Counted from the stretch's first letter, positions 1-6,526 are shown. The stretch is 24,000 bases of DNA from Moraxellaceae bacterium (GCA_037189985.1 JBBCJX010000009.1:1-24000); one strand, 5' to 3'. Program-made: numbers and translations. The notes: generated from the letters alone by a model not told the origin.

Positions 1-203
1 ACCCGGATATGTAGACCTGAGTCAGGGTGCGACACCCTGCGCCCTTATTCCCTCTGTTCATCTTGTTTTAAGTGCCTTTTCCTTTTCCGTGAGAGTCAAC
101 CTGCGACATACTCCGCCGGCCTGAGTCAGCTGGATTATGTACAGGACTGTGTACATAAAGCGCTGCCTTGGCGTTCATGGCGAATTTTGTACATGGTGAT
201 GGC

Positions 204-1409
204 ATGCCGCTTACGGATACCTGGCTCAAGGCCAATGAAGGGAAAGAGCGAGAAAAGACTCTCGAAGTTGCTGATCGTGATGGCATGGGGGTTCGTGTCT
301 CGCCCAAGGGCAAGATGACCTTTCAGTTGCGTTATCGCTACGCCGGCAAGGCGGCTCGGGTAGATCTTGGCACATATCCCATGATGGGGCTCAAGGCGGC
401 TCGTATGGAGGCGCAACGGCTAAGGGGGCAACTGGAGACTGGGCATGATCCGCGAGTGGTGGTGCAGCTTGAGAAGCACAAGCTTTCTGGTGCCATCCAG
501 ATCGAGACCATGATCAGGCAGTGGTATGCGGCCTATTGCGTTGCGAATAAGAAAAACCATGCCGAGATACTGCGTTCATTTGAGATCTACATTTTTCCAA
601 AGCTGGGCTCGTTGCCGGCGGAACTGACAACGATTCCTCTGTGGCTGGATATCCTGGAGCCTATAGCCAAGAAGTATCCGGGCATTGCGGACCGTCTCCT
701 GATCAACTCCAAGCAGGCGTACAAGTGGGCGATACGACGAAGCTTGGTCGACTTGAATCCGTTGGCGAGCATAACCGGTGCTGCTGATCTGAACATCCGG
801 AAGGGGCAGGGTACGCGGACTCTGGATGATGATGAGCTGCGCCATGTGTGGCGAGCCATCAATGAGTCCCGGATGCTGCAGAAGAATCGTCTGTTCCTGA
901 GGTTGGTTATTTTTTACGGCTGCAGGAACGGGGAGTTGCGGTTGGCCAGGAAGGAGCATTTCAATTTCAAGGATGGCGTATGGACGGTTCCTCCGGAAAA
1001 CCACAAGACTGGAAAGAAAACTGGAAAGGCACTTCTGCGCCCAATCATTCCTGAGGTGCGGCCTCTTATCGAGGAGGCAATGATGCTGAGTGCGGGGCCT
1101 TTTCTCTTTACCAATGCTGAGTCTGAGGAGGGAATGGGGCCGCGTGTTCCGCTGGCGCTGCCTTACAACATCATGCAATGGCTGCGGAAAAATGATGGCT
1201 TTGAGATGGGGCACTGGTCCGTTCATGACTTGAGAAGGACGGCCCGTACCAACTTTTCAAAAATCACTAATCCGCTGACTGCAGAAATAATGCTGGGTCA
1301 TAAGCTTCCTGGGGTGTGGGAGGTGTATGACAGATATAACTATCTTGGCGAGCAGGCAGTTGCGTATTCAAGCTGGTGGGCACGACTCATGCAGATTGTT
1401 GAAGCTTGA
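204..1409 (+). CDS. int: Tyrosine recombinase/integrase, P4-like (N-terminal arm-binding DUF4102-type domain)
   Basis: The ORF at 168..1409 opens with TTG. The ATG at 204 gives MPLTDTWLKA..., a typical P4-integrase N-terminus. The N-terminal motif GVRVSPKGKMTFQLRYRYAGK is present. The C-terminal catalytic signature is HDLRRTARTN ... MLGHKLPGVWEVYDRYNY (HxxR ... H ... Y). Confidence 0.9.
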   Translation: MPLTDTWLKANEGKEREKTLEVADRDGMGVRVSPKGKMTFQLRYRYAGKAARVDLGTYPMMGLKAARMEAQRLRGQLETGHDPRVVVQLEKHKLSGAIQIETMIRQWYAAYCVANKKNHAEILRSFEIYIFPKLGSLPAELTTIPLWLDILEPIAKKYPGIADRLLINSKQAYKWAIRRSLVDLNPLASITGAADLNIRKGQGTRTLDDDELRHVWRAINESRMLQKNRLFLRLVIFYGCRNGELRLARKEHFNFKDGVWTVPPENHKTGKKTGKALLRPIIPEVRPLIEEAMMLSAGPFLFTNAESEEGMGPRVPLALPYNIMQWLRKNDGFEMGHWSVHDLRRTARTNFSKITNPLTAEIMLGHKLPGVWEVYDRYNYLGEQAVAYSSWWARLMQIVEA

Positions 1410-1620: not shown

Positions 1621-2247
1621 TTAACCTCTGTTGACCAAGGCGGCCATGAGGCGGTCGTGGTGGACGTAAATGGGGCGTCCAGTGGTCTTTTCTTTCTCGA
1701 TCCACCACTCCAGTACTTCACGCAGGCCAAGCGTGGCAGGCGAGTGGGCGGCTGCCGGTGCTGGTGATTGGTTAACCGGGCTCTTCTCCGGCAGGGCGGC
1801 GAGCCCATCCAGTACGCGCTGCCGGAGCTCCTGGGTCTTCTTGCCGCCAGATCCCTTCAGTGCGCCCGATGCGTAAGCTGTGCAAATGCCATTCTCTATG
1901 CACCACTTATTCATGGTGGTCCCTTTCTTCTTGAATTCTTCCTTCACGGCGGTCCGGATATCGCGTGTGGCCGATATCGCGGGCTTCGGTTTGTCTTCTT
2001 TTTGGGGGGCGGGCTCCGGCTTCATTTTCTTTTCGGCTTGCTTGTCGAGCTCGTTGCGGCGCTCGGCATCACGTTGTGGATTGATGCTGAAGTCCTTGAA
2101 GTTGGCCGTGTCGCCTGTGGCGCCAGCGCCGACGGCCTGTATCTTTCCGCCGCGCTGTAGGAAGCGCTCCATGTCGGCTTCCAGCTGCTCGCGGTAGCTT
2201 CTCTTCTGCTCGATGACGGCGCTGTTGATGATGGATGTTTCGGTCAT
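1621..2247 (-). CDS. Hypothetical protein with a possible Ner-like HTH segment
   Basis: ORF 1621..2268. The internal ATG at 2247 has a GAGG 5 nt upstream and clears the upstream stop codon (2255-2257). The central Lys/Glu/Pro-rich linker is followed by IRTAVKEEFKKKGTTMNKWCIENGICTAYASGALKG, which resembles Ner/Nlp-type HTH. Confidence 0.45.
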   Translation of the reverse strand: MTETSIINSAVIEQKRSYREQLEADMERFLQRGGKIQAVGAGATGDTANFKDFSINPQRDAERRNELDKQAEKKMKPEPAPQKEDKPKPAISATRDIRTAVKEEFKKKGTTMNKWCIENGICTAYASGALKGSGGKKTQELRQRVLDGLAALPEKSPVNQSPAPAAAHSPATLGLREVLEWWIEKEKTTGRPIYVHHDRLMAALVNRG

Positions 2248-2254
2248 GATGGCC

Positions 2255-2524
2255 TCAGTTCTTGTCATAAACGGATTTGAGCCAGCTGGAGTACTCGCCC
2301 ATGTTGCTGATCAATATGAGGCGGCTGTCGTCGCACCCGCGTAAGCGGGAGGCGTCATCGCAGTCTGTGCATGCGTTTATGTACTCATGCAGGCTGGCGA
2401 TAGCCGCATCCAGTTTTTTGGCAGTGGCAAGTCCGGCTTGCACGCGCTTTGCTTTGTTGCGGGCTTCTCTTTTCCGCTGGGTGTCGCTCTTGAAGTCGTC
2501 GCCCGACATTGATTGCTGAATCAT
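2255..2524 (-). CDS. Hypothetical 89-aa protein, start codon abuts the RT stop (TAAATG)
   Basis: The ORF start (ATG, 2524-2522) immediately follows the RT stop TAA (2527-2525). The N-terminus is basic (KREARNKAKR) and Cys residues are present (CTDCDD..C). I recognise no family. Confidence 0.5.
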   Translation of the reverse strand: MIQQSMSGDDFKSDTQRKREARNKAKRVQAGLATAKKLDAAIASLHEYINACTDCDDASRLRGCDDSRLILISNMGEYSSWLKSVYDKN

Positions 2525-3706
2525 TTATTTTCCCGCCCCATAGATTTTGGTCAGATGGTGATTCACGGCACGGCCGCGCTGCAGGATGGCTTTGGAAACC
2601 TTCGCGCGGTCCTGCTGGCTATGGGTGGCTTGCCCGATCAGGCCGAGGTAGCTGTTGGCCACGGCCGTCAGATCCTCGCGTGGTGTTGTGCGCATGGCGG
2701 CCACGGCATGGTTCACTGTCCGGCGGCGGGTGGTGCGGTGCCATGGCTTGATGACCTGGCCCACAAAGTCCACACCACGCGACACGGGCTGCAGGATCGT
2801 CTTCTTGGGATTGAGCTCAAGGGCGAGGCGTGCCGGCAGGAAGGCCTCTATCTCGGCCAGCCATGCACGCAACTGCTGCGGTGATTCGTGCACCAGAACA
2901 AAGTCATCCACATAGCGCACGTAATGCCGGCAGCCAAGACGGTGCTTAACAAACTGGTCCAGCTCATTCATGGTGACGTTGGCGCCGGATTGGCTGGGCA
3001 GGTTTCCTATGGGAAAGCCCTTGTTGCTGGGCTGGCTGGCCAGCCGCTTGTGTGCCGGCACGCGCTCGATCAGTCGTGGATCGCCCCGGTATTCAAAGTC
3101 CTGACGCGGGTCATGGAAGTAGATCGTGTGCGCGAGCCAGCGCCACCATGGCTCAGGAATGCCGGGGGCCAGCAGGCTCCAGAAAATGTCCTTGTCCAGA
3201 GAGACAAAGAAGTTGGCAATGTCGCATTTCAGGTAATAACACGGCCGTGACCAGTTCTGTGATGCGCTCCGGATGTGGTGTTCAAGGCGCTTGGCGCCGT
3301 AGAGGGTCCCTCTTCCTGGAATGCAGGCGCAGCTGTCGGCAATGAAGCGACGCATGAAGCGGTCGGAAATGTGATTGTGCAGTAGCCAGTGCACGATGCG
3401 GTCACGGAAAGGGGCAGCCCATACCTCGCGCGGCTTCGGCCGCGTGATGACAAAGCAGATGCTGCGGCCGGGCTGGTAGGTCTGGCTGCGGAGCTCGTCA
3501 CGTAGCTTGATCAGCTCGCGCTCGTAGTTGAGCTCAAAGGCAAAGGCGCTGGCGGTATTGCGCTTGGTCCGGCTGCAGTCGCGATAGGCGCGCAACAGAT
3601 CGGAGAATAAAAAATCAGCATGGGCCTCGGGGAGGGCATCCGTAAAATCTGCGGACGGCCACTGCACGACGCTTGTTGTCCTTGTTGTTGATGTTGCTGT
3701 TGCCAT
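2525..3706 (-). CDS. DGR-type reverse transcriptase (RNA-directed DNA polymerase)
   Basis: Has the catalytic YVDDFVLV (YxDD) box. The preceding FPIGNLPSQSGANV matches the [ILV]GxxxSQ motif characteristic of DGR RTs (Bordetella phage BPP-1 Brt has IGSLTSQ). The N-terminal FSDLLRAYRDCSRTKR aligns with Brt WENLLDAYRKTSHGKR. The start is uncertain. The ORF opens at GTG 3766. ATG 3706 has AGGA 8 nt upstream. GTG 3667 would give an N-terminus of Brt-like length. All three candidates lie inside or beyond the TR. Confidence 0.92.
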   Translation of the reverse strand: MATATSTTRTTSVVQWPSADFTDALPEAHADFLFSDLLRAYRDCSRTKRNTASAFAFELNYERELIKLRDELRSQTYQPGRSICFVITRPKPREVWAAPFRDRIVHWLLHNHISDRFMRRFIADSCACIPGRGTLYGAKRLEHHIRSASQNWSRPCYYLKCDIANFFVSLDKDIFWSLLAPGIPEPWWRWLAHTIYFHDPRQDFEYRGDPRLIERVPAHKRLASQPSNKGFPIGNLPSQSGANVTMNELDQFVKHRLGCRHYVRYVDDFVLVHESPQQLRAWLAEIEAFLPARLALELNPKKTILQPVSRGVDFVGQVIKPWHRTTRRRTVNHAVAAMRTTPREDLTAVANSYLGLIGQATHSQQDRAKVSKAILQRGRAVNHHLTKIYGAGK

Positions 3707-3748
3707 ACTCGAAGTCCTGAACGTAGACGTTGTTGGCGTCGTTCTGGG
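3650..3748 (-). repeat. DGR template repeat (TR), 99-bp core
   Basis: Aligns without gaps to 4409..4507 and 4996..5094. At every variable position but one, this copy carries A on the minus strand. In the VR reading frame it reads QNDANNVYVQDFEYGNSNINNKDNKRRAVAVR and contains eight AAC codons. Confidence 0.92.
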
Positions 3749-3902
3749 CCGTGTCATGCTATCCACGTCGCCCGGTCGAATCCTCGGCCGGAAAACTGCG
3801 CGAGACCTGCCGGCATGCGCTGGCGGTTTCTCTGATGCGCCTGGCGGTGGCGGCAGTACTGCGCCGCCAGCGGCATAACCAGATTCAGAATACGCACGGC
3901 AG

Positions 3903-4319
3903 TCAAAGCCTTAACTCTGACTGGACTGGCGAGGTTGCGGCTTGGGTGGCCCCGGTATCGCTAAGTGCGCTACTTACACTGCCGTTTTTCCAGCCGCCTG
4001 CTTGGGCGCCGATGGAATCAAGTGTCTCGATGGCTCTGGCGTGGTGCGTGATCGCAATGACTCGTGCGCGTGCCAGTGACCGAAACTGGAAAATCAGGAC
4101 GTCCAGGCTCTCCAAGAGATCGTCAATGCGATCTGCCCGGATGGTTCCTTGGGCCATGTTGGCGCGGCGGATGAGCAGCCCGAGCTTGGAGGCTCGGTCC
4201 AGCATCAGCGGCCCCATCGTGGCTCTGGTGGTCTTCGGAACCTGGCTCATTATCGTGATTGTCTGATCCACCAGCGTTTCAGCCGCGCGGTAAATGGGTA
4301 AATCGGAATGCAGGCTCAT
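3903..4319 (-). CDS. avd: Accessory variability determinant (Avd)-like four-helix-bundle protein
   Basis: 138 aa, located between the target genes and the TR as in canonical DGRs. Helical, basic sequence: ETLVDQTITIMSQVPKTTRATMGPLMLDRASKLGLLIRRAN ... LDVLIFQFRSLARARVI ... IETLDSIGAQAGGWKN. This resembles Avd / 23S-rRNA-IVS-family proteins. The call rests on position and pattern, not on a search. Confidence 0.75.
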   Translation of the reverse strand: MSLHSDLPIYRAAETLVDQTITIMSQVPKTTRATMGPLMLDRASKLGLLIRRANMAQGTIRADRIDDLLESLDVLIFQFRSLARARVIAITHHARAIETLDSIGAQAGGWKNGSVSSALSDTGATQAATSPVQSELRL

Positions 4320-4345
4320 GCTGATAAAACCAAAAATTCAAAAAC

Positions 4346-4364
4346 GAGGGCGCATAGCGCCCTC
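4346..4364 (-). promoter_or_regulatory. GC-rich hairpin downstream of VR1 (8-bp stem gagggcgc/gcgccctc, 3-nt loop); candidate DGR target-recognition hairpin and/or intrinsic terminator
   Basis: Perfect inverted repeat, read directly. On the minus strand it is followed by a T-rich tract (gtttttgaatttttggtttt). A paralogous hairpin sits at the same relative position after VR2. Confidence 0.6.
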
Positions 4365-4379
4365 ACAGCAGGTTAAGGA

Positions 4380-4904
4380 TTAAAGGACTGAAGCACTCAG
4401 CTGAATCGTGCGGACGGCCACTGCACGACGCTTGAAGCCCTTGCGGCTGATGCTGCTGTAGCCATACTCGAAGTCCTGAACGTGGACGTTGTAGGCGTCG
4501 TGCTGGGTGCTGGTCCAATACCAGCCCTCCGGGTTGAGCAGGTGCGGCACGTTGATCGACAGGATTTTCGATTCGTTGGTGGACGGCATGAACCAGTCGC
4601 GGTGGCCTTCGATATCCAAGGCGAGAATCTTTTTGCAGATATCGCTGCCGGCGGCGGCAAAGGCGATGGTGTTGGCCATGCCATTGTCCTTGCTGTCAGC
4701 GCCCTCGACCTTTTCGCCGTAGGTTCCGAATTCTTCTTTTTCGGGGTGGCCTGCCAGATCGGTGGCAATGATCAGTGCACGGAGGGGCTCGCCGGGCTTG
4801 CCGCCGATGATGCCGGCGAAGACGCCGCCTTGGCCGGGCCAGGCTTCGCCAATGTGTGGGGAAGAAAACGTGGTGGTGTGAAGCAGTGTGGCGGGTGCGT
4901 TCAT
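4380..4904 (-). CDS. DGR variable target protein 1 (DUF1566/Lcl-C-terminal-like C-type-lectin-fold candidate), 174 aa
   Basis: AGGAG lies 8 nt upstream of the ATG at 4904. The C-terminus contains VR1. The motifs DWFMPSTNE and WYWTSTQ, and the ending RRAVAVR, resemble DUF1566-type DGR targets. It is about 40% identical to the adjacent paralogue outside the VR. Confidence 0.85.
   Translation of the reverse strand: MNAPATLLHTTTFSSPHIGEAWPGQGGVFAGIIGGKPGEPLRALIIATDLAGHPEKEEFGTYGEKVEGADSKDNGMANTIAFAAAGSDICKKILALDIEGHRDWFMPSTNESKILSINVPHLLNPEGWYWTSTQHDAYNVHVQDFEYGYSSISRKGFKRRAVAVRTIQLSASVL
4409..4507 (-). repeat. DGR variable repeat VR1
   Basis: 11 mismatches to the TR. Ten are at TR adenines (TR + strand positions 3676, 3677, 3679, 3685, 3686, 3688, 3694, 3701, 3734, 3743). 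One is at a non-adenine (3725). It encodes QHDAYNVHVQDFEYGYSSISRKGFK. Confidence 0.9.
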
Positions 4905-4932
4905 GGTATTGCTCCTGAAAAATTTGCGCGCG

Positions 4933-4951
4933 AAGGGCGCTGCGCGCCCTT
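4933..4951 (-). promoter_or_regulatory. GC-rich hairpin downstream of VR2 (8-bp stem aagggcgc/gcgccctt, 3-nt loop)
   Basis: Perfect inverted repeat, read directly. It is paralogous to 4346..4364, and the sequence between hairpin and VR is also conserved between the two copies. Confidence 0.6.
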
Positions 4952-4975
4952 ACAACTGGTTAAGGATTGAAGGAC

Positions 4976-5488
4976 TCAAGCACTCAGCTGAATCTTGCGG
5001 ACGGCCACTGCACGACGCTTGAGGTCCTTGTCGTAGAGGCTGCTGCCGCCATACTCGAAGTCCTGAACGAAGACGTTGTCGGCGTCGTACTGGGTGCTGG
5101 TCAGGTAGTAGTAATCAAACTTGAAAAGCTGCGGCACGTTGATGGCCATTGCACGGGCATCATGGGCAGCAGGCAGGATCAGGTCTTTTTGCCCGGCAAT
5201 TTCCAGATCAAGAATCTGCTGGCAGATCTCGCTGCCGGCGGCGGCAAGGGCGATAGTGTTGGCGCGGCCGTCGTGCATGCTCGTGGCGGCCTCGACATCG
5301 ATGCCGTAGGTGCCGAGCTGGACGCCCTCGAAGTGCACGCGCGGATCATCGGGCAGGATAATGGCTTCGTAGGGACGGCCTTCCTGTCCTCCGGTGATGC
5401 CGCAGAAAATGCCGTGGTGCTCCGGCCAGACGATGCCGACGCGGGGCAGGTTGAGGGTGACGATGACGGGTGTGGCAGATGCATTCAT
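4976..5488 (-). CDS. DGR variable target protein 2 (paralogue of target 1), 170 aa
   Basis: The ORF track extends to 5722. The ATG at 5488 (MNASATP...) parallels the MNAPATL... start of the paralogue and has AGGAG upstream. The C-terminus contains VR2. Confidence 0.85.
   Translation of the reverse strand: MNASATPVIVTLNLPRVGIVWPEHHGIFCGITGGQEGRPYEAIILPDDPRVHFEGVQLGTYGIDVEAATSMHDGRANTIALAAAGSEICQQILDLEIAGQKDLILPAAHDARAMAINVPQLFKFDYYYLTSTQYDADNVFVQDFEYGGSSLYDKDLKRRAVAVRKIQLSA
4996..5094 (-). repeat. DGR variable repeat VR2
   Basis: 11 mismatches to the TR, all at TR adenines (3676, 3677, 3686, 3689, 3692, 3694, 3700, 3701, 3724, 3734, 3743). It encodes QYDADNVFVQDFEYGGSSLYDKDLK. Confidence 0.9.
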
Positions 5489-5514
5489 GGTGGTGCTCCT
5501 GGTTGTAGTCGGGG

Positions 5515-6516
5515 TTATTTGCCTGCGCAGGTACTGCAGAGGGATGGCTCGACCCAGTAGCAACCGCCTGCGCAGGCGCGATGCCACGTGCACCCGCAAA
5601 CCCTGCAGATGTCTTTCTCTGGATCGATGGGGGTTATTGAGGTGATGAGCAGCTGCAGGGCGTGACTGGTGATTGCGGTCACTTCCTCTGTGGTTGCGGG
5701 GCGGGGCTCGGCTGTTCCCCACTTTTCGCCTGCTGGCCAGAACACGCGAGCAGAGTCGCCATCAGGGGTGGGATATTTACGCATTAGCGTGATGGTGCCG
5801 ATGTCCGGAACCGACTCATGTATTTCGTTCGGTTCCTGGGCGTAGGTATCGCCGCTGATGTAGATCTCGGCAACTCCGCGCCTCAGCAAGGTATGGCTCG
5901 GTGCATCTTTGAAGTGGCAGTTCTCGCCCGGCTTGAGTGTCACGGCCATATAGGGATCGCCGAGCCCCTCCGTGAAGCGGTGATTCACAAGGCGGCCGCT
6001 GACGATGGTTGAGCTGAGGCCCCACTGCAGGTGGTCATGGATGGTGCTCACGTTGGCGAACGCATGGCGGCTGTCCCAGACGTGAAGTCTGGTTTCTCCC
6101 GGCAAATGCAGGCGCAGCATGCCGAACCCTTGCAGCGACCAACTGAACTTTCCCGCATTTTCCAGAATGAAGCGCACCAAGCTGCGCAGGCGGGGTAGGT
6201 CGGTTTCCGTCAGTGCTGCCATGTCATGTGCAACAGCTTTCTCCTGAATATCATCAAGGACATCCTCATTGATGATGCGCATGGGAATGTCTTCGCCGCC
6301 CTCGATCCAGTAGCCGCCGTCATGGTCATAGCGCTCACAGTGCAGTGGGCGTTCGTGCCATGGTTGAGTTGGCTCGCCACCCATTTCTGGAATGGTGTAG
6401 CTGTCAAACGGGCCGCCATAGGTGGGCACGAGGCCGAGCTCGGGATGCTCTATCACCATGAAAAAATCACGGCGGGTGATGGGGCACTTTTCGGGGTGAG
6501 TGTTGGTGATGGTCAT
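5515..6516 (-). CDS. Hypothetical protein with Cys-rich C-terminal module
   Basis: ORF 5515..6576. The ATG at 6516 has GAGGG 7 nt upstream and clears the upstream stop at 6527. The middle has a His-rich cupin-like pattern (LHVWDSRH...IHDHLQWGLSSTIVSG). The C-terminus is CRVCGCTWHRACAGGCYWVEPSLCSTC. Confidence 0.6.
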   Translation of the reverse strand: MTITNTHPEKCPITRRDFFMVIEHPELGLVPTYGGPFDSYTIPEMGGEPTQPWHERPLHCERYDHDGGYWIEGGEDIPMRIINEDVLDDIQEKAVAHDMAALTETDLPRLRSLVRFILENAGKFSWSLQGFGMLRLHLPGETRLHVWDSRHAFANVSTIHDHLQWGLSSTIVSGRLVNHRFTEGLGDPYMAVTLKPGENCHFKDAPSHTLLRRGVAEIYISGDTYAQEPNEIHESVPDIGTITLMRKYPTPDGDSARVFWPAGEKWGTAEPRPATTEEVTAITSHALQLLITSITPIDPEKDICRVCGCTWHRACAGGCYWVEPSLCSTCAGK

Positions 6517-6526
6517 GCCGGCGCCC

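What the first reader, a model, noticed from the sequence alone, without database searches (positions are those of the whole stretch)
4380..5488. Two tandem paralogous target genes, each with an independently diversified VR fed by a single TR
The 174-aa and 170-aa proteins are only about 40% identical over their first 125 or so residues. They share the VR scaffold exactly (VQDFEYG, KRRAVAVR). Their variable codons differ from each other at 8 of the 10 codons that vary in either copy (H/Y, Y/D, H/F, Y/G, S/S, I/L, S/Y, R/D, G/D, F/L). One TR therefore appears to service two neighbouring loci, which squares the accessible repertoire. Multi-target DGRs are known, but a tandem pair of minimal single-domain targets is a compact and experimentally tractable case.
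Basis: partly seen in the sequence, partly recalled or inferred. Interest (0 to 1): 0.7.

Follow-up and report, generated by a model that had tools for sequence, protein, structure and literature searches.

The report
Prophage DGR with two tandem targets
A prophage carries a mutagenic retroelement (a DGR) whose single template rewrites the binding face of two neighbouring small lectin-like proteins; the finding is real, but it is a typical member of a known class.

Summary
On the minus strand lie a 170-aa gene (5488..4976), a 174-aa gene (4904..4380), avd (4319..3903), a 99-nt template repeat (3748..3650) and a DGR-type reverse transcriptase (3667..2525). Each target gene ends in a copy of the template. 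VR2 differs from it at 11 positions, all template adenines. VR1 differs at 11, of which 10 are adenines.

Each VR, but not the TR, is followed by its own GC-rich hairpin. A second natural contig is identical over 9,674 bp except for 9 substitutions, all inside VR1. So VR1 was rewritten while VR2 stayed unchanged.

The AF2 model of the 170-aa protein (pLDDT 96) matches the Legionella Lcl C-terminal (DUF1566) domain best, then C-type-lectin-like domains. Variable positions align with Lcl's ligand-binding lysines.

The pair is not unusual. 22 of 23 related RT loci in beta- and gammaproteobacterial genomes carry two or more VRs, and the literature reports about 15% of DGRs as multi-target.

What stands out is the setting. 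The cassette lies at the early-left, integrase-proximal end of a lambdoid prophage, and the targets have no signal peptide. Their ligand is unknown.

The parts
4976..5488 (-). Distal target gene T2 (170 aa), a single DUF1566/Lcl_C-like CLec-fold domain with no signal peptide
   Evidence: ORF. AF2 pLDDT 96.2. Foldseek top hit 8q4e. phrog_4245 C-terminus. Orthologues at 65-70% identity in L003, L004 and L006.
4996..5094 (-). VR2: variable repeat at the 3' end of T2
   Evidence: 11 mismatches to the TR, all at TR adenines. Identical in the second natural contig L001.
4933..4951 (-). Hairpin 44 nt downstream of VR2 (AAGGGCGC-GCA-GCGCCCTT), a putative DGR target-recognition element
   Evidence: The same kind of hairpin follows every VR, and never the TR, in relatives.
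4380..4904 (-). Proximal target gene T1 (174 aa), a paralogue of T2 (41.6% identity before the VR)
   Evidence: ORF. Pfam Lcl_C E=2.7e-5, below the gathering score. phrog_4245. AF2 pLDDT 75 with a shallow alignment.
4409..4507 (-). VR1: variable repeat at the 3' end of T1
   Evidence: 11 mismatches to the TR: 10 at adenines and 1 T>C at 4484. All 9 differences between the window and L001/L002 over 9,674 bp fall at 4435-4484.
4346..4364 (-). Hairpin 44 nt downstream of VR1 (GAGGGCGC-TAT-GCGCCCTC). It is followed by a T-run, so it also looks like an intrinsic terminator.
3903..4319 (-). avd accessory gene (138 aa)
   Evidence: NCBIfam DivGenRetAVD E=8.9e-11 and Pfam bAvd E=1e-6, both full length but below the curated cut-offs.
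3650..3748 (-). Template repeat (TR) with 31 adenines and 8 AAC codons. Its last 22 nt (3671..3650, CGTCGTGCAGTGGCCGTCCGCA) are GC-rich and identical in both VRs (IMH-like).
   Evidence: No hairpin follows it.
2525..3667 (-). DGR reverse transcriptase. The GTG start at 3667 is the one called in L001, and the ORF is open back to 3766 across the TR.
   Evidence: Pfam RVT_1 E=5.6e-16. IGNLPSQ and YVDD motifs read. 55-74% identity to RTs next to TR/VR sets in more than 30 loci.

Best explanation
This is a complete diversity-generating retroelement at the early-left, integrase-proximal end of a lambdoid prophage.

Mechanism, inferred by analogy with Bordetella phage BPP-1: the TR is transcribed. 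The RT, working with Avd, copies it into cDNA and misincorporates opposite template adenines. The cDNA then replaces the homologous VR. The 3' GC-rich invariant segment and a GC hairpin that follows each VR, but not the TR, direct this replacement.

Two adjacent genes each carry a competent recipient site. They encode anciently diverged single-domain DUF1566/C-type-lectin-like proteins of 170 and 174 aa. One template therefore rewrites the same 10 or more surface codons in two different scaffolds, in separate events.

Shown here: the anatomy, the adenine-specific pattern in both VRs, a rewrite of VR1 alone between two natural isolates, the fold, and conservation of the pair across relatives.

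Inferred: the biochemical mechanism, the current activity of VR2, and the function. My best guess for function is that both are ligand-binding proteins made from the early-left operon that act inside the infected or lysogenic cell, because they lack signal peptides and lie far from the tail genes. Their ligand is unknown.
For: All VRs, and no TR, have a hairpin in the window and in seven related loci, consistent with the BPP-1 requirement (PMC3240598).

Natural activity: L001 and L002 are identical to window 12496..2823 except for 9 substitutions, all in VR1. Eight are at TR adenine positions. The ninth is the T/C site.

Fold: AF2 pLDDT 96.2. Foldseek gives 8q4e at E=4.9e-4 and probability 1.0, followed by snaclec, LOX-1 and NKG2-type CTLDs. 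The profile hits 8q4e at 5e-8, and 78 of 113 homologues hit Lcl_C.

Binding face: variable positions 134, 150 and 156 of T2 align with Lcl K369, K385 and K391. Alanine substitution of these lysines reduced GAG binding. Position 151 aligns with surface residue D386 (alignment plus PMC11162425). Variable columns are also the most variable across the family, at 3.05 bits against 1.42 bits for the VR scaffold.

Conservation of the pair: L003 has two VRs and one TR, L004 and L006 have both genes, nine of nine IMG/VR relatives in which a TR was found have 2-4 VRs, and 22 of 23 GTDB loci have two or more VRs.

Prophage setting: CI, CII, O-like, terminase, portal and head genes and the integrase. The position is the same in L046 and L026. 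128 of 134 close homologues have no hydrophobic N-terminus.
Against: No experiment or read-level data show retrohoming here. VR2 is identical in the only two natural variants available, so its present-day activity is unproven. The hairpin loops have 3 nt (TAT, GCA) and lie 44 nt from the VR, whereas the BPP-1 survey describes 4-nt GRNA loops at 4-34 bp, so their role is inferred. The Avd and Lcl_C hits are below the curated thresholds. The 'no signal peptide' statement rests on a crude hydrophobicity scan, not on SignalP. Structurally similar domains also occur at the C-terminal tips of tail-fibre and receptor-binding proteins of phages, so a virion role is not excluded.
Confidence: 0.9

Rival explanations
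1. One active target and one relic. Only the TR-proximal VR1 is still diversified. VR2 was diversified in the past and is now a fixed allele, so the element behaves as a single-target DGR.
For: Between the two natural variants all 9 changes are in VR1 and none in VR2. T2 is a single sequence across three contigs, whereas T1 has two.
Against: VR2 keeps every non-adenine TR position (0 non-A mismatches), the full 22-nt GC-rich 3' segment, and a hairpin with the clade-consensus GCA loop. A relic would be expected to drift. The distal target is conserved, with A-only mismatches, in nearly all relatives. Two samples are too few to establish inactivity.
Confidence: 0.2
2. The targets are virion-associated receptor-binding adhesins, like Mtd, that attach to the tail despite being encoded outside the tail module. 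The DGR would then switch host tropism, with two alternative tips.
For: The same fold forms the C-terminal tip of phage proteins annotated as tail fibre, receptor-binding protein, collagen-repeat or Peptidase_S74 proteins in BFVD. The classic role of a phage DGR is tropism switching (PMC5758913).
Against: T1 and T2 are single domains with no fibre or attachment region. They lie on the opposite strand from the late genes, at the far end of the early-left operon next to the integrase. Relatives keep this position at the prophage edge. Homologues without a DGR in Pseudomonas phages also sit just after the repressor in the early region.
Confidence: 0.15
3. There is no retroelement activity. The three repeats are ordinary duplications kept similar by gene conversion, and the differences are ordinary point mutations.
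For: Direct repeats of about 99 nt can arise by duplication, and the 3' flanks of the two genes are also 82% identical.
Against: 21 of 22 differences fall on template adenines (P about 6e-10), mostly at first and second positions of AAC codons. A DGR-type RT and Avd lie directly adjacent. The second natural contig differs only within 50 bp of VR1 over 9.7 kb.
Confidence: 0.01

Closest known systems
Multi-target DGR cassettes with short DUF1566-type (CLec2, 'category d') targets, catalogued by Wu et al. 2018 (PMC5758913)
   Same: One TR, Avd and RT with two or more adjacent target genes. The VR lies at the C-terminus of a short protein consisting only of a DUF1566-like domain, and the TR is rich in AAC codons. 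The paper reports about 15% of DGRs with more than one target (13% with two). About half of the category d targets are short DUF1566-only proteins.
   Different: No difference of kind. This lineage could not be checked against their tables because the supplements are not held. The systematic pairing in this RT clade and its prophage early-left position are not described in the text I could read.
Bordetella phage BPP-1 DGR (mtd-avd-TR-brt)
   Same: The gene order target-avd-TR-RT, adenine mutagenesis, a GC-rich 3' VR segment, a GC hairpin downstream of the VR and a temperate-phage host.
   Different: BPP-1 has one target, the 381-aa tail-fibre tip protein Mtd, in the tail module. Here there are two 170-aa single-domain targets in the early region. 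The hairpin loop has 3 nt (GCA or TAT) at 44 nt, rather than a 4-nt GRNA loop directly after the VR.
Legionella pneumophila DGR target LdtA and the Lcl C-terminal domain (PDB 8q4e)
   Same: DUF1566/Lcl_C-type CLec-like fold, and 8q4e is the best sequence-profile and structural match. The variable positions align with Lcl's GAG-binding lysines.
   Different: LdtA is an exported surface lipoprotein on an ICE, and Lcl is a secreted trimeric collagen-like adhesin. T1 and T2 have no signal peptide or lipobox. They lack the residue equivalent to Lcl trimer-interface R342: T1 has Thr and T2 has Ala there (read).
Pseudomonas phage D3 orf68 / phrog_4245 family of early proteins
   Same: The same domain family at 30-35% identity, a structural match to Q9MBK5, and the same early-left position after the repressor in Cruim01 and vB_Pae_U9.
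   Different: No RT or Avd homologue and no TR/VR pair was found in the two such loci examined (L007, L008). Function is unknown in both cases.

Membership tests
Diversity-generating retroelement (DGR) | TR/VR repeat pair whose differences are restricted to template adenines | tested here: met
   VR2 has 11 of 11 mismatches at A, and VR1 has 10 of 11.
Diversity-generating retroelement (DGR) | Adjacent reverse transcriptase of the DGR clade ([I/L/V]GxxxSQ motif and YxDD; motif definition from my own knowledge of the DGR literature) | tested here: met
   IGNLPSQ and YVDD read in the translation. RVT_1 E=5.6e-16. 55-74% identity to RTs flanked by TR/VR sets. No DGR-specific RT model was available in the libraries searched.
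Diversity-generating retroelement (DGR) | Accessory variability determinant (Avd) between target and TR | tested here: met
   NF033474 DivGenRetAVD E=8.9e-11 (42 bits, cut-off 80). PF22296 bAvd E=1e-6 (29.6 bits, cut-off 40). Both matches are full length, but both are below the curated cut-offs.
Diversity-generating retroelement (DGR) | Cis elements at the recipient only: a GC-rich IMH-like 3' end and a downstream GC-rich hairpin | tested here: met
   A 22-nt GC-rich segment is shared by TR, VR1 and VR2. 8-bp GC hairpins lie 44 nt after each VR and none after the TR, and the same holds in relatives. Loop size and sequence (3 nt, GCA or TAT) and distance differ from the BPP-1 consensus.
Diversity-generating retroelement (DGR) | Ongoing mutagenic retrohoming (VR changes while the flanks stay constant) | tested here: inconclusive
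   Met for VR1: there are 9 substitutions confined to VR1 over 9,674 otherwise identical bp. Not shown for VR2, which is identical in both variants. No further copies were found in JGI metagenomes or IMG/VR.
Multi-target DGR | Two or more VRs matching one TR within the cassette | tested here: met
   Two VRs and one TR in the window, with no third VR. The same holds in L003, in the nine IMG/VR loci where a TR was found, and in 22 of 23 GTDB loci.
Pfam PF07603 Lcl_C (DUF1566) | Score at or above the Pfam gathering threshold (34.9 bits) | tested here: not met
   T1 scores 24.9 bits (E=2.7e-5) and T2 has no hit. However, 78 of 113 aligned homologues hit Lcl_C, and the family profile hits the Lcl-CTD chain 8q4e at 5.1e-8. 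These are divergent relatives of the family rather than threshold-passing members.
C-type-lectin-like fold of DGR variable proteins | Predicted structure matches CLec-like domains, with the VR forming the C-terminal strands | tested here: met
C-type-lectin-like fold of DGR variable proteins | Variable residues solvent-exposed and clustered on one face | tested here: inconclusive
Indirect support: the variable positions align with Lcl K369, K385, K391 and D386, which are surface and GAG-binding residues. They are also the highest-entropy columns in the family.
Mtd-type phage receptor-binding target | Target encoded in the tail module and carrying a fibre or attachment region | tested here: not met
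   The targets are single-domain 170- and 174-aa proteins in the early-left operon next to the integrase, on the opposite strand from the late genes.

The most novel reading that the evidence does not exclude
In this clade of beta- and gammaproteobacterial prophage DGRs, the conserved pair of signal-peptide-less DUF1566 proteins is a diversified intracellular binder system expressed from the early operon. For example, it could be a hypervariable inhibitor or decoy aimed at variable host factors such as defence proteins or superinfecting-phage proteins. The two scaffolds would be kept either because they form a hetero-oligomer or because they cover two ligand classes. That would make it a phage-side DGR that does not serve receptor recognition.
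Probability: 0.15. Interest if true: 0.8.

Novelty: new member of a known kind. Interest (0 to 1): 0.35.

Why it matters
As an example of a DGR it adds little, because two-target cassettes and short DUF1566 targets are already catalogued. Three points give it modest value. First, two natural contigs that are identical apart from VR1 show that a single VR of a tandem pair can be rewritten on its own. Second, the two-target layout is nearly universal in this RT clade, which suggests the pair is functionally required rather than accidental. Third, the targets lie in the early or lysogeny module of temperate phages and lack export signals, so the usual explanation of tail-fibre tropism switching does not obviously apply. 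The cassette is only about 3 kb, which makes it a convenient system for asking how one TR partitions cDNA between two recipients and what a phage gains from diversifying non-structural proteins.

Tried and rejected
- Megablast of the cassette against plasmids, and of the whole window against phage genomes, found nothing.
- A GTDB scan with patterns derived from the target proteins found no confirmed relative, so the RT was used instead.
- Exact-pattern scans of JGI metagenomes and IMG/VR found no further variants. One used a T2-specific pre-VR 31-mer and one used the TR with N at every adenine. VR2 activity could therefore not be tested further.
- The window's own T1 sequence could not be located with the look-up of encoding contigs. 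The cluster look-up shows it lies on a 41,125-bp contig.
- No pair of related loci was more than 93% identical, so proximal and distal VR turnover could not be compared there.
- PADLOC and NCBIfam gave nothing for T1, T2 or the upstream 333-aa ORF.
- Model coordinates are not exposed to scripts, so solvent accessibility was not computed.
- The first T1 model, built from only 9 sequences, had low confidence in the VR and gave a weak Foldseek hit. The T2 model built from 113 sequences was used instead.
- The Roux et al. preprint gave no usable statement on multi-target frequency.
- I considered an ICE context because of the ParB-like and ASCH genes. I rejected it once CI, CII, terminase, portal, head and integrase genes were identified.

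Full report
**Observation.** The minus strand of window 2525-5488 carries five elements in order:
- a 170-aa ORF (T2, 5488..4976);
- a 174-aa ORF (T1, 4904..4380);
- a 138-aa ORF (4319..3903);
- a non-coding stretch;
- a reverse-transcriptase ORF that runs to 2525.

A three-member direct repeat of 99 nt links 3650-3748, 4409-4507 and 4996-5094. I aligned the three copies on the coding strand. The copy at 3748..3650 is adenine-rich, with 31 A and eight AAC codons. The other two differ from it at 11 positions each. For the T2 copy (VR2) all 11 are template adenines. For the T1 copy (VR1) 10 are adenines and one is a T>C at window 4484. With about 31% A in the template, 21 of 22 differences at A has a probability near 6e-10.

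The two copies differ at nine of them, not eight, with only the S/S codon agreeing. Before the VR the two proteins are 41.6% identical over 125 residues. Both genes have an AGGAG about 8 nt before the ATG. No third VR exists in the 24-kb window.

**What the element is.** The RT ORF hits RVT_1. It also contains IGNLPSQ and YVDD, which I recognise from the DGR literature as the DGR RT signature. The 138-aa protein matches NCBIfam DivGenRetAVD (E=8.9e-11) and Pfam bAvd (E=1e-6) over their full lengths, although both scores are below the curated cut-offs. The last 22 nt of the TR (CGTCGTGCAGTGGCCGTCCGCA) are GC-rich and identical in both VRs.

Each VR is followed 44 nt downstream by an 8-bp GC-rich hairpin. 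The VR1 hairpin is at 4346-4364 with loop TAT, and the VR2 hairpin is at 4933-4951 with loop GCA. No hairpin follows the TR. The two stems differ by a compensatory pair (G-C versus A-T). In seven related loci nearly every VR, and never the TR, has such a hairpin. The stem sequences vary and the loop is mostly GCA or GTA, at a clade-specific distance of 27 nt or 40-57 nt.

Guo et al. showed for BPP-1 that a GC hairpin downstream of the VR is required for retrohoming. Their survey described 7-10 bp stems, 4-nt GRNA loops and distances of 4-34 bp (PMC3240598). The elements here are the same kind of signal, but with a 3-nt loop and a longer spacer. The VR1 hairpin is followed by a T-run and also scores as an intrinsic terminator. 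Each target therefore carries its own full set of recipient cis elements.

**Evidence of natural activity.** Two public contigs cover this region. L001 is 9,674 bp from GCA_037189345.1, and L002 comes from Logan run SRR27999909. Both are identical to window 12496..2823 except for nine substitutions, all between 4435 and 4484 inside VR1. Eight of the nine are at TR adenine positions. The ninth is the T/C site, where L001 carries the template base. VR2 is identical in both variants.

The protein clusters agree: T1 has two sequence variants and T2 has one. This shows directly that VR1 was rewritten without any change to VR2, so the two sites are hit in separate events. It does not show that VR2 is currently active. 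I looked for more variants with two pattern scans each of JGI metagenomes and IMG/VR and found none.

**The target proteins.** T1 hits Pfam Lcl_C (DUF1566) below threshold, at 24.9 bits against a gathering score of 34.9. T2 has no hit. Both match the C-terminal 165 positions of phrog_4245, a family of unknown function. A profile search of 1.84 billion representative proteins found 11,227 relatives, many of them 160-210-aa single-domain proteins that cover the whole query. Of 113 aligned members, 78 hit Lcl_C.

An AF2 model of T2 built from this alignment has pLDDT 96.2 and pTM 0.89. Foldseek against the PDB places the Legionella Lcl C-terminal domain 8q4e first (E=4.9e-4, probability 1.0). A Bacteroides fimbrial protein follows, and then a long series of C-type-lectin-like domains at weak E-values: snaclecs, LOX-1, CD94/NKG2A and invasin. 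The family profile also finds 8q4e by sequence (E=5.1e-8). Its authors describe that domain as C-type-lectin-like (PMC11162425). The CLec/DUF1566 prediction is therefore supported.

I could not compute burial because model coordinates are not exposed. Two indirect tests both agree with exposure.
- In the gapless HMM alignment to 8q4e, chain index plus 236 reproduces eight residue identities named in the paper (R342, F343, E368, K369, K380, K385, D386, K391). On that numbering, T2 variable positions 134, 150 and 156 align with K369, K385 and K391. Alanine substitution of these lysines reduced heparin and C4S binding. Position 151 aligns with surface residue D386.
- The ten variable columns have a mean entropy of 3.05 bits across the family. 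The interleaved scaffold columns of the VR have 1.42 bits and the rest of the domain 2.14 bits.

Each VR can in principle encode about 10^17.7 peptides, or about 10^10 if only the ten codons seen to vary are counted. The 'squared' repertoire is therefore arithmetic, and it matters functionally only if the two proteins act together.

**The pair is neither new nor decaying.** The closest relatives keep the same layout.
- L003 has a 170-aa distal target, a 199-aa proximal target, Avd, one TR and the RT. Both VRs differ from the TR only at adenines.
- L004 and L006 are cut by contig ends but show both genes.
- The distal copies are 65-70% identical across these phages but only about 42% identical to their own neighbour, so the duplication predates the divergence of these phages.

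More widely, all nine IMG/VR relatives in which a TR was found have two to four VRs. Among 27 GTDB loci found with the RT, 22 of the 23 with enough upstream DNA have two or more VRs, usually two small targets immediately upstream of Avd-TR-RT. Their hosts include Janthinobacterium, Paraburkholderia, Undibacterium, Duganella, Comamonas, Acidovorax, Gallionella and Pseudomonas.

[quoted passage not shown] They also report that about half of the DUF1566-type 'category d' targets are short single-domain proteins (PMC5758913). The finding is thus a typical member of a documented class.

**Genomic setting and likely function.** The window is a lambdoid prophage. It has an integrase at 168-1409 (+). 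The other identified genes are:
- a CI-like S24 repressor at 13791..13111 (-);
- a CII-like gene and an O-like replication gene;
- small and large terminase subunits, the portal, and the protease/major head protein on the + strand.

The DGR lies at the far end of the leftward early operon, after the ANT, ParB-like and ASCH genes and just before the integrase. In Janthinobacterium lividum (L046) and Undibacterium (L026) the cassette likewise sits a few kb downstream of a CI-like repressor or of early genes. Housekeeping genes follow it directly, so it lies at the edge of the prophage.

Homologues at 30-35% identity occur in Pseudomonas phages, including D3 orf68, PMG1, Medea1, Cruim01 and vB_Pae_U9. 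In Cruim01 and vB_Pae_U9, the two I examined, they lie in the early region after the repressor, and no RT or Avd homologue or TR/VR pair was found nearby. T1, T2 and 128 of the 134 closest family members of 150-270 aa lack a hydrophobic N-terminus.

On this basis I favour ligand-binding proteins that act inside the infected or lysogenic cell. This part is inference. BFVD also shows the same fold at the C-terminal tips of tail-fibre and receptor-binding proteins, so a virion-associated adhesin role remains possible. PADLOC and NCBIfam give no functional clue.

**Verdict.** The corrections are minor: 9 of 10 codons rather than 8, and the repertoire argument is arithmetic only. The element is a new member of a known kind. 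Interest is modest. It rests on three points:
- the clean natural snapshot of one VR changing while its neighbour does not;
- the near-universal pairing of targets in this RT clade;
- the non-structural, apparently cytoplasmic nature of the targets, whose ligand is unknown.

Noticed in passing
window 4484 (VR1), TR position 3725: There is a single non-adenine difference between VR1 and the TR (T>C, making TAC into CAC). The second natural variant, L001, has the template T at this site. It is either an RT error at a non-A position or an ordinary point mutation.
   Followed up: partly
window 4346-4364 and 4933-4951; L003, L009-L018 downstream of each VR: Across this DGR clade the post-VR hairpin has a 3-nt loop, mostly GCA or GTA closed by C:G, at a clade-specific distance of 27 nt or 40-57 nt. 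This differs from the 4-nt GRNA loops at 4-34 bp described for BPP-1-like DGRs. The recently rewritten VR1 carries the atypical TAT loop.
   Followed up: partly
window 5515-6576 (-): The ORF directly upstream of T2 (333 aa as called in L001) has no hit in Pfam, PHROGs, NCBIfam or PADLOC. It ends in a Cys-rich motif (CRVCGCTWHRACAGGCYWVEPSLCSTCAGK). Its N-terminal ~90 residues are 77% identical to a 465-aa protein at the same position in L006.
   Followed up: partly
window 1621-2268 (-): A 215-aa prophage protein between the RT and the integrase has a SutA RNAP-binding domain (Pfam PF20661, E=1.6e-10, above threshold). It may be a phage-encoded RNA-polymerase-binding factor.
   Followed up: no
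window 7751-9787 (-): A 678-aa ParB-like protein (phrog_7783, E=9.5e-91) has a Lys/Ala/Pro-rich N-terminal tail. Homologues lie upstream of the DGR in L004, L035 and L038.
   Followed up: no
L015, L016, L017, L018, L031, L040, L044, L046: Some relatives have three to five VRs for one TR, including extra targets 2-4 kb upstream of the tandem pair. The number of targets therefore varies within the clade.
   Followed up: partly
P0012 (367 aa), P0015 (382 aa), P0027, P0152; P0011 (3,693 aa, 17 stretches): The same domain also occurs as two or three fused copies in one protein, and as long arrays in giant proteins. Tandem genes and tandem domains therefore both exist in the family.
   Followed up: no
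P0017, P0059, P0076, P0093, P0095 (family members): Several close homologues carry a strongly basic Lys/Arg/Pro-rich N-terminal extension instead of a signal peptide. Others share a short conserved N-terminal module (for example 'MSAAKKFSVQIGQIKI...').
   Followed up: no
L003 6422-7270: The related phage contig L003 encodes a third Lcl_C protein of 282 aa with a lipoprotein-like N-terminus, next to the repressor. It has no VR matching the TR.
   Followed up: partly
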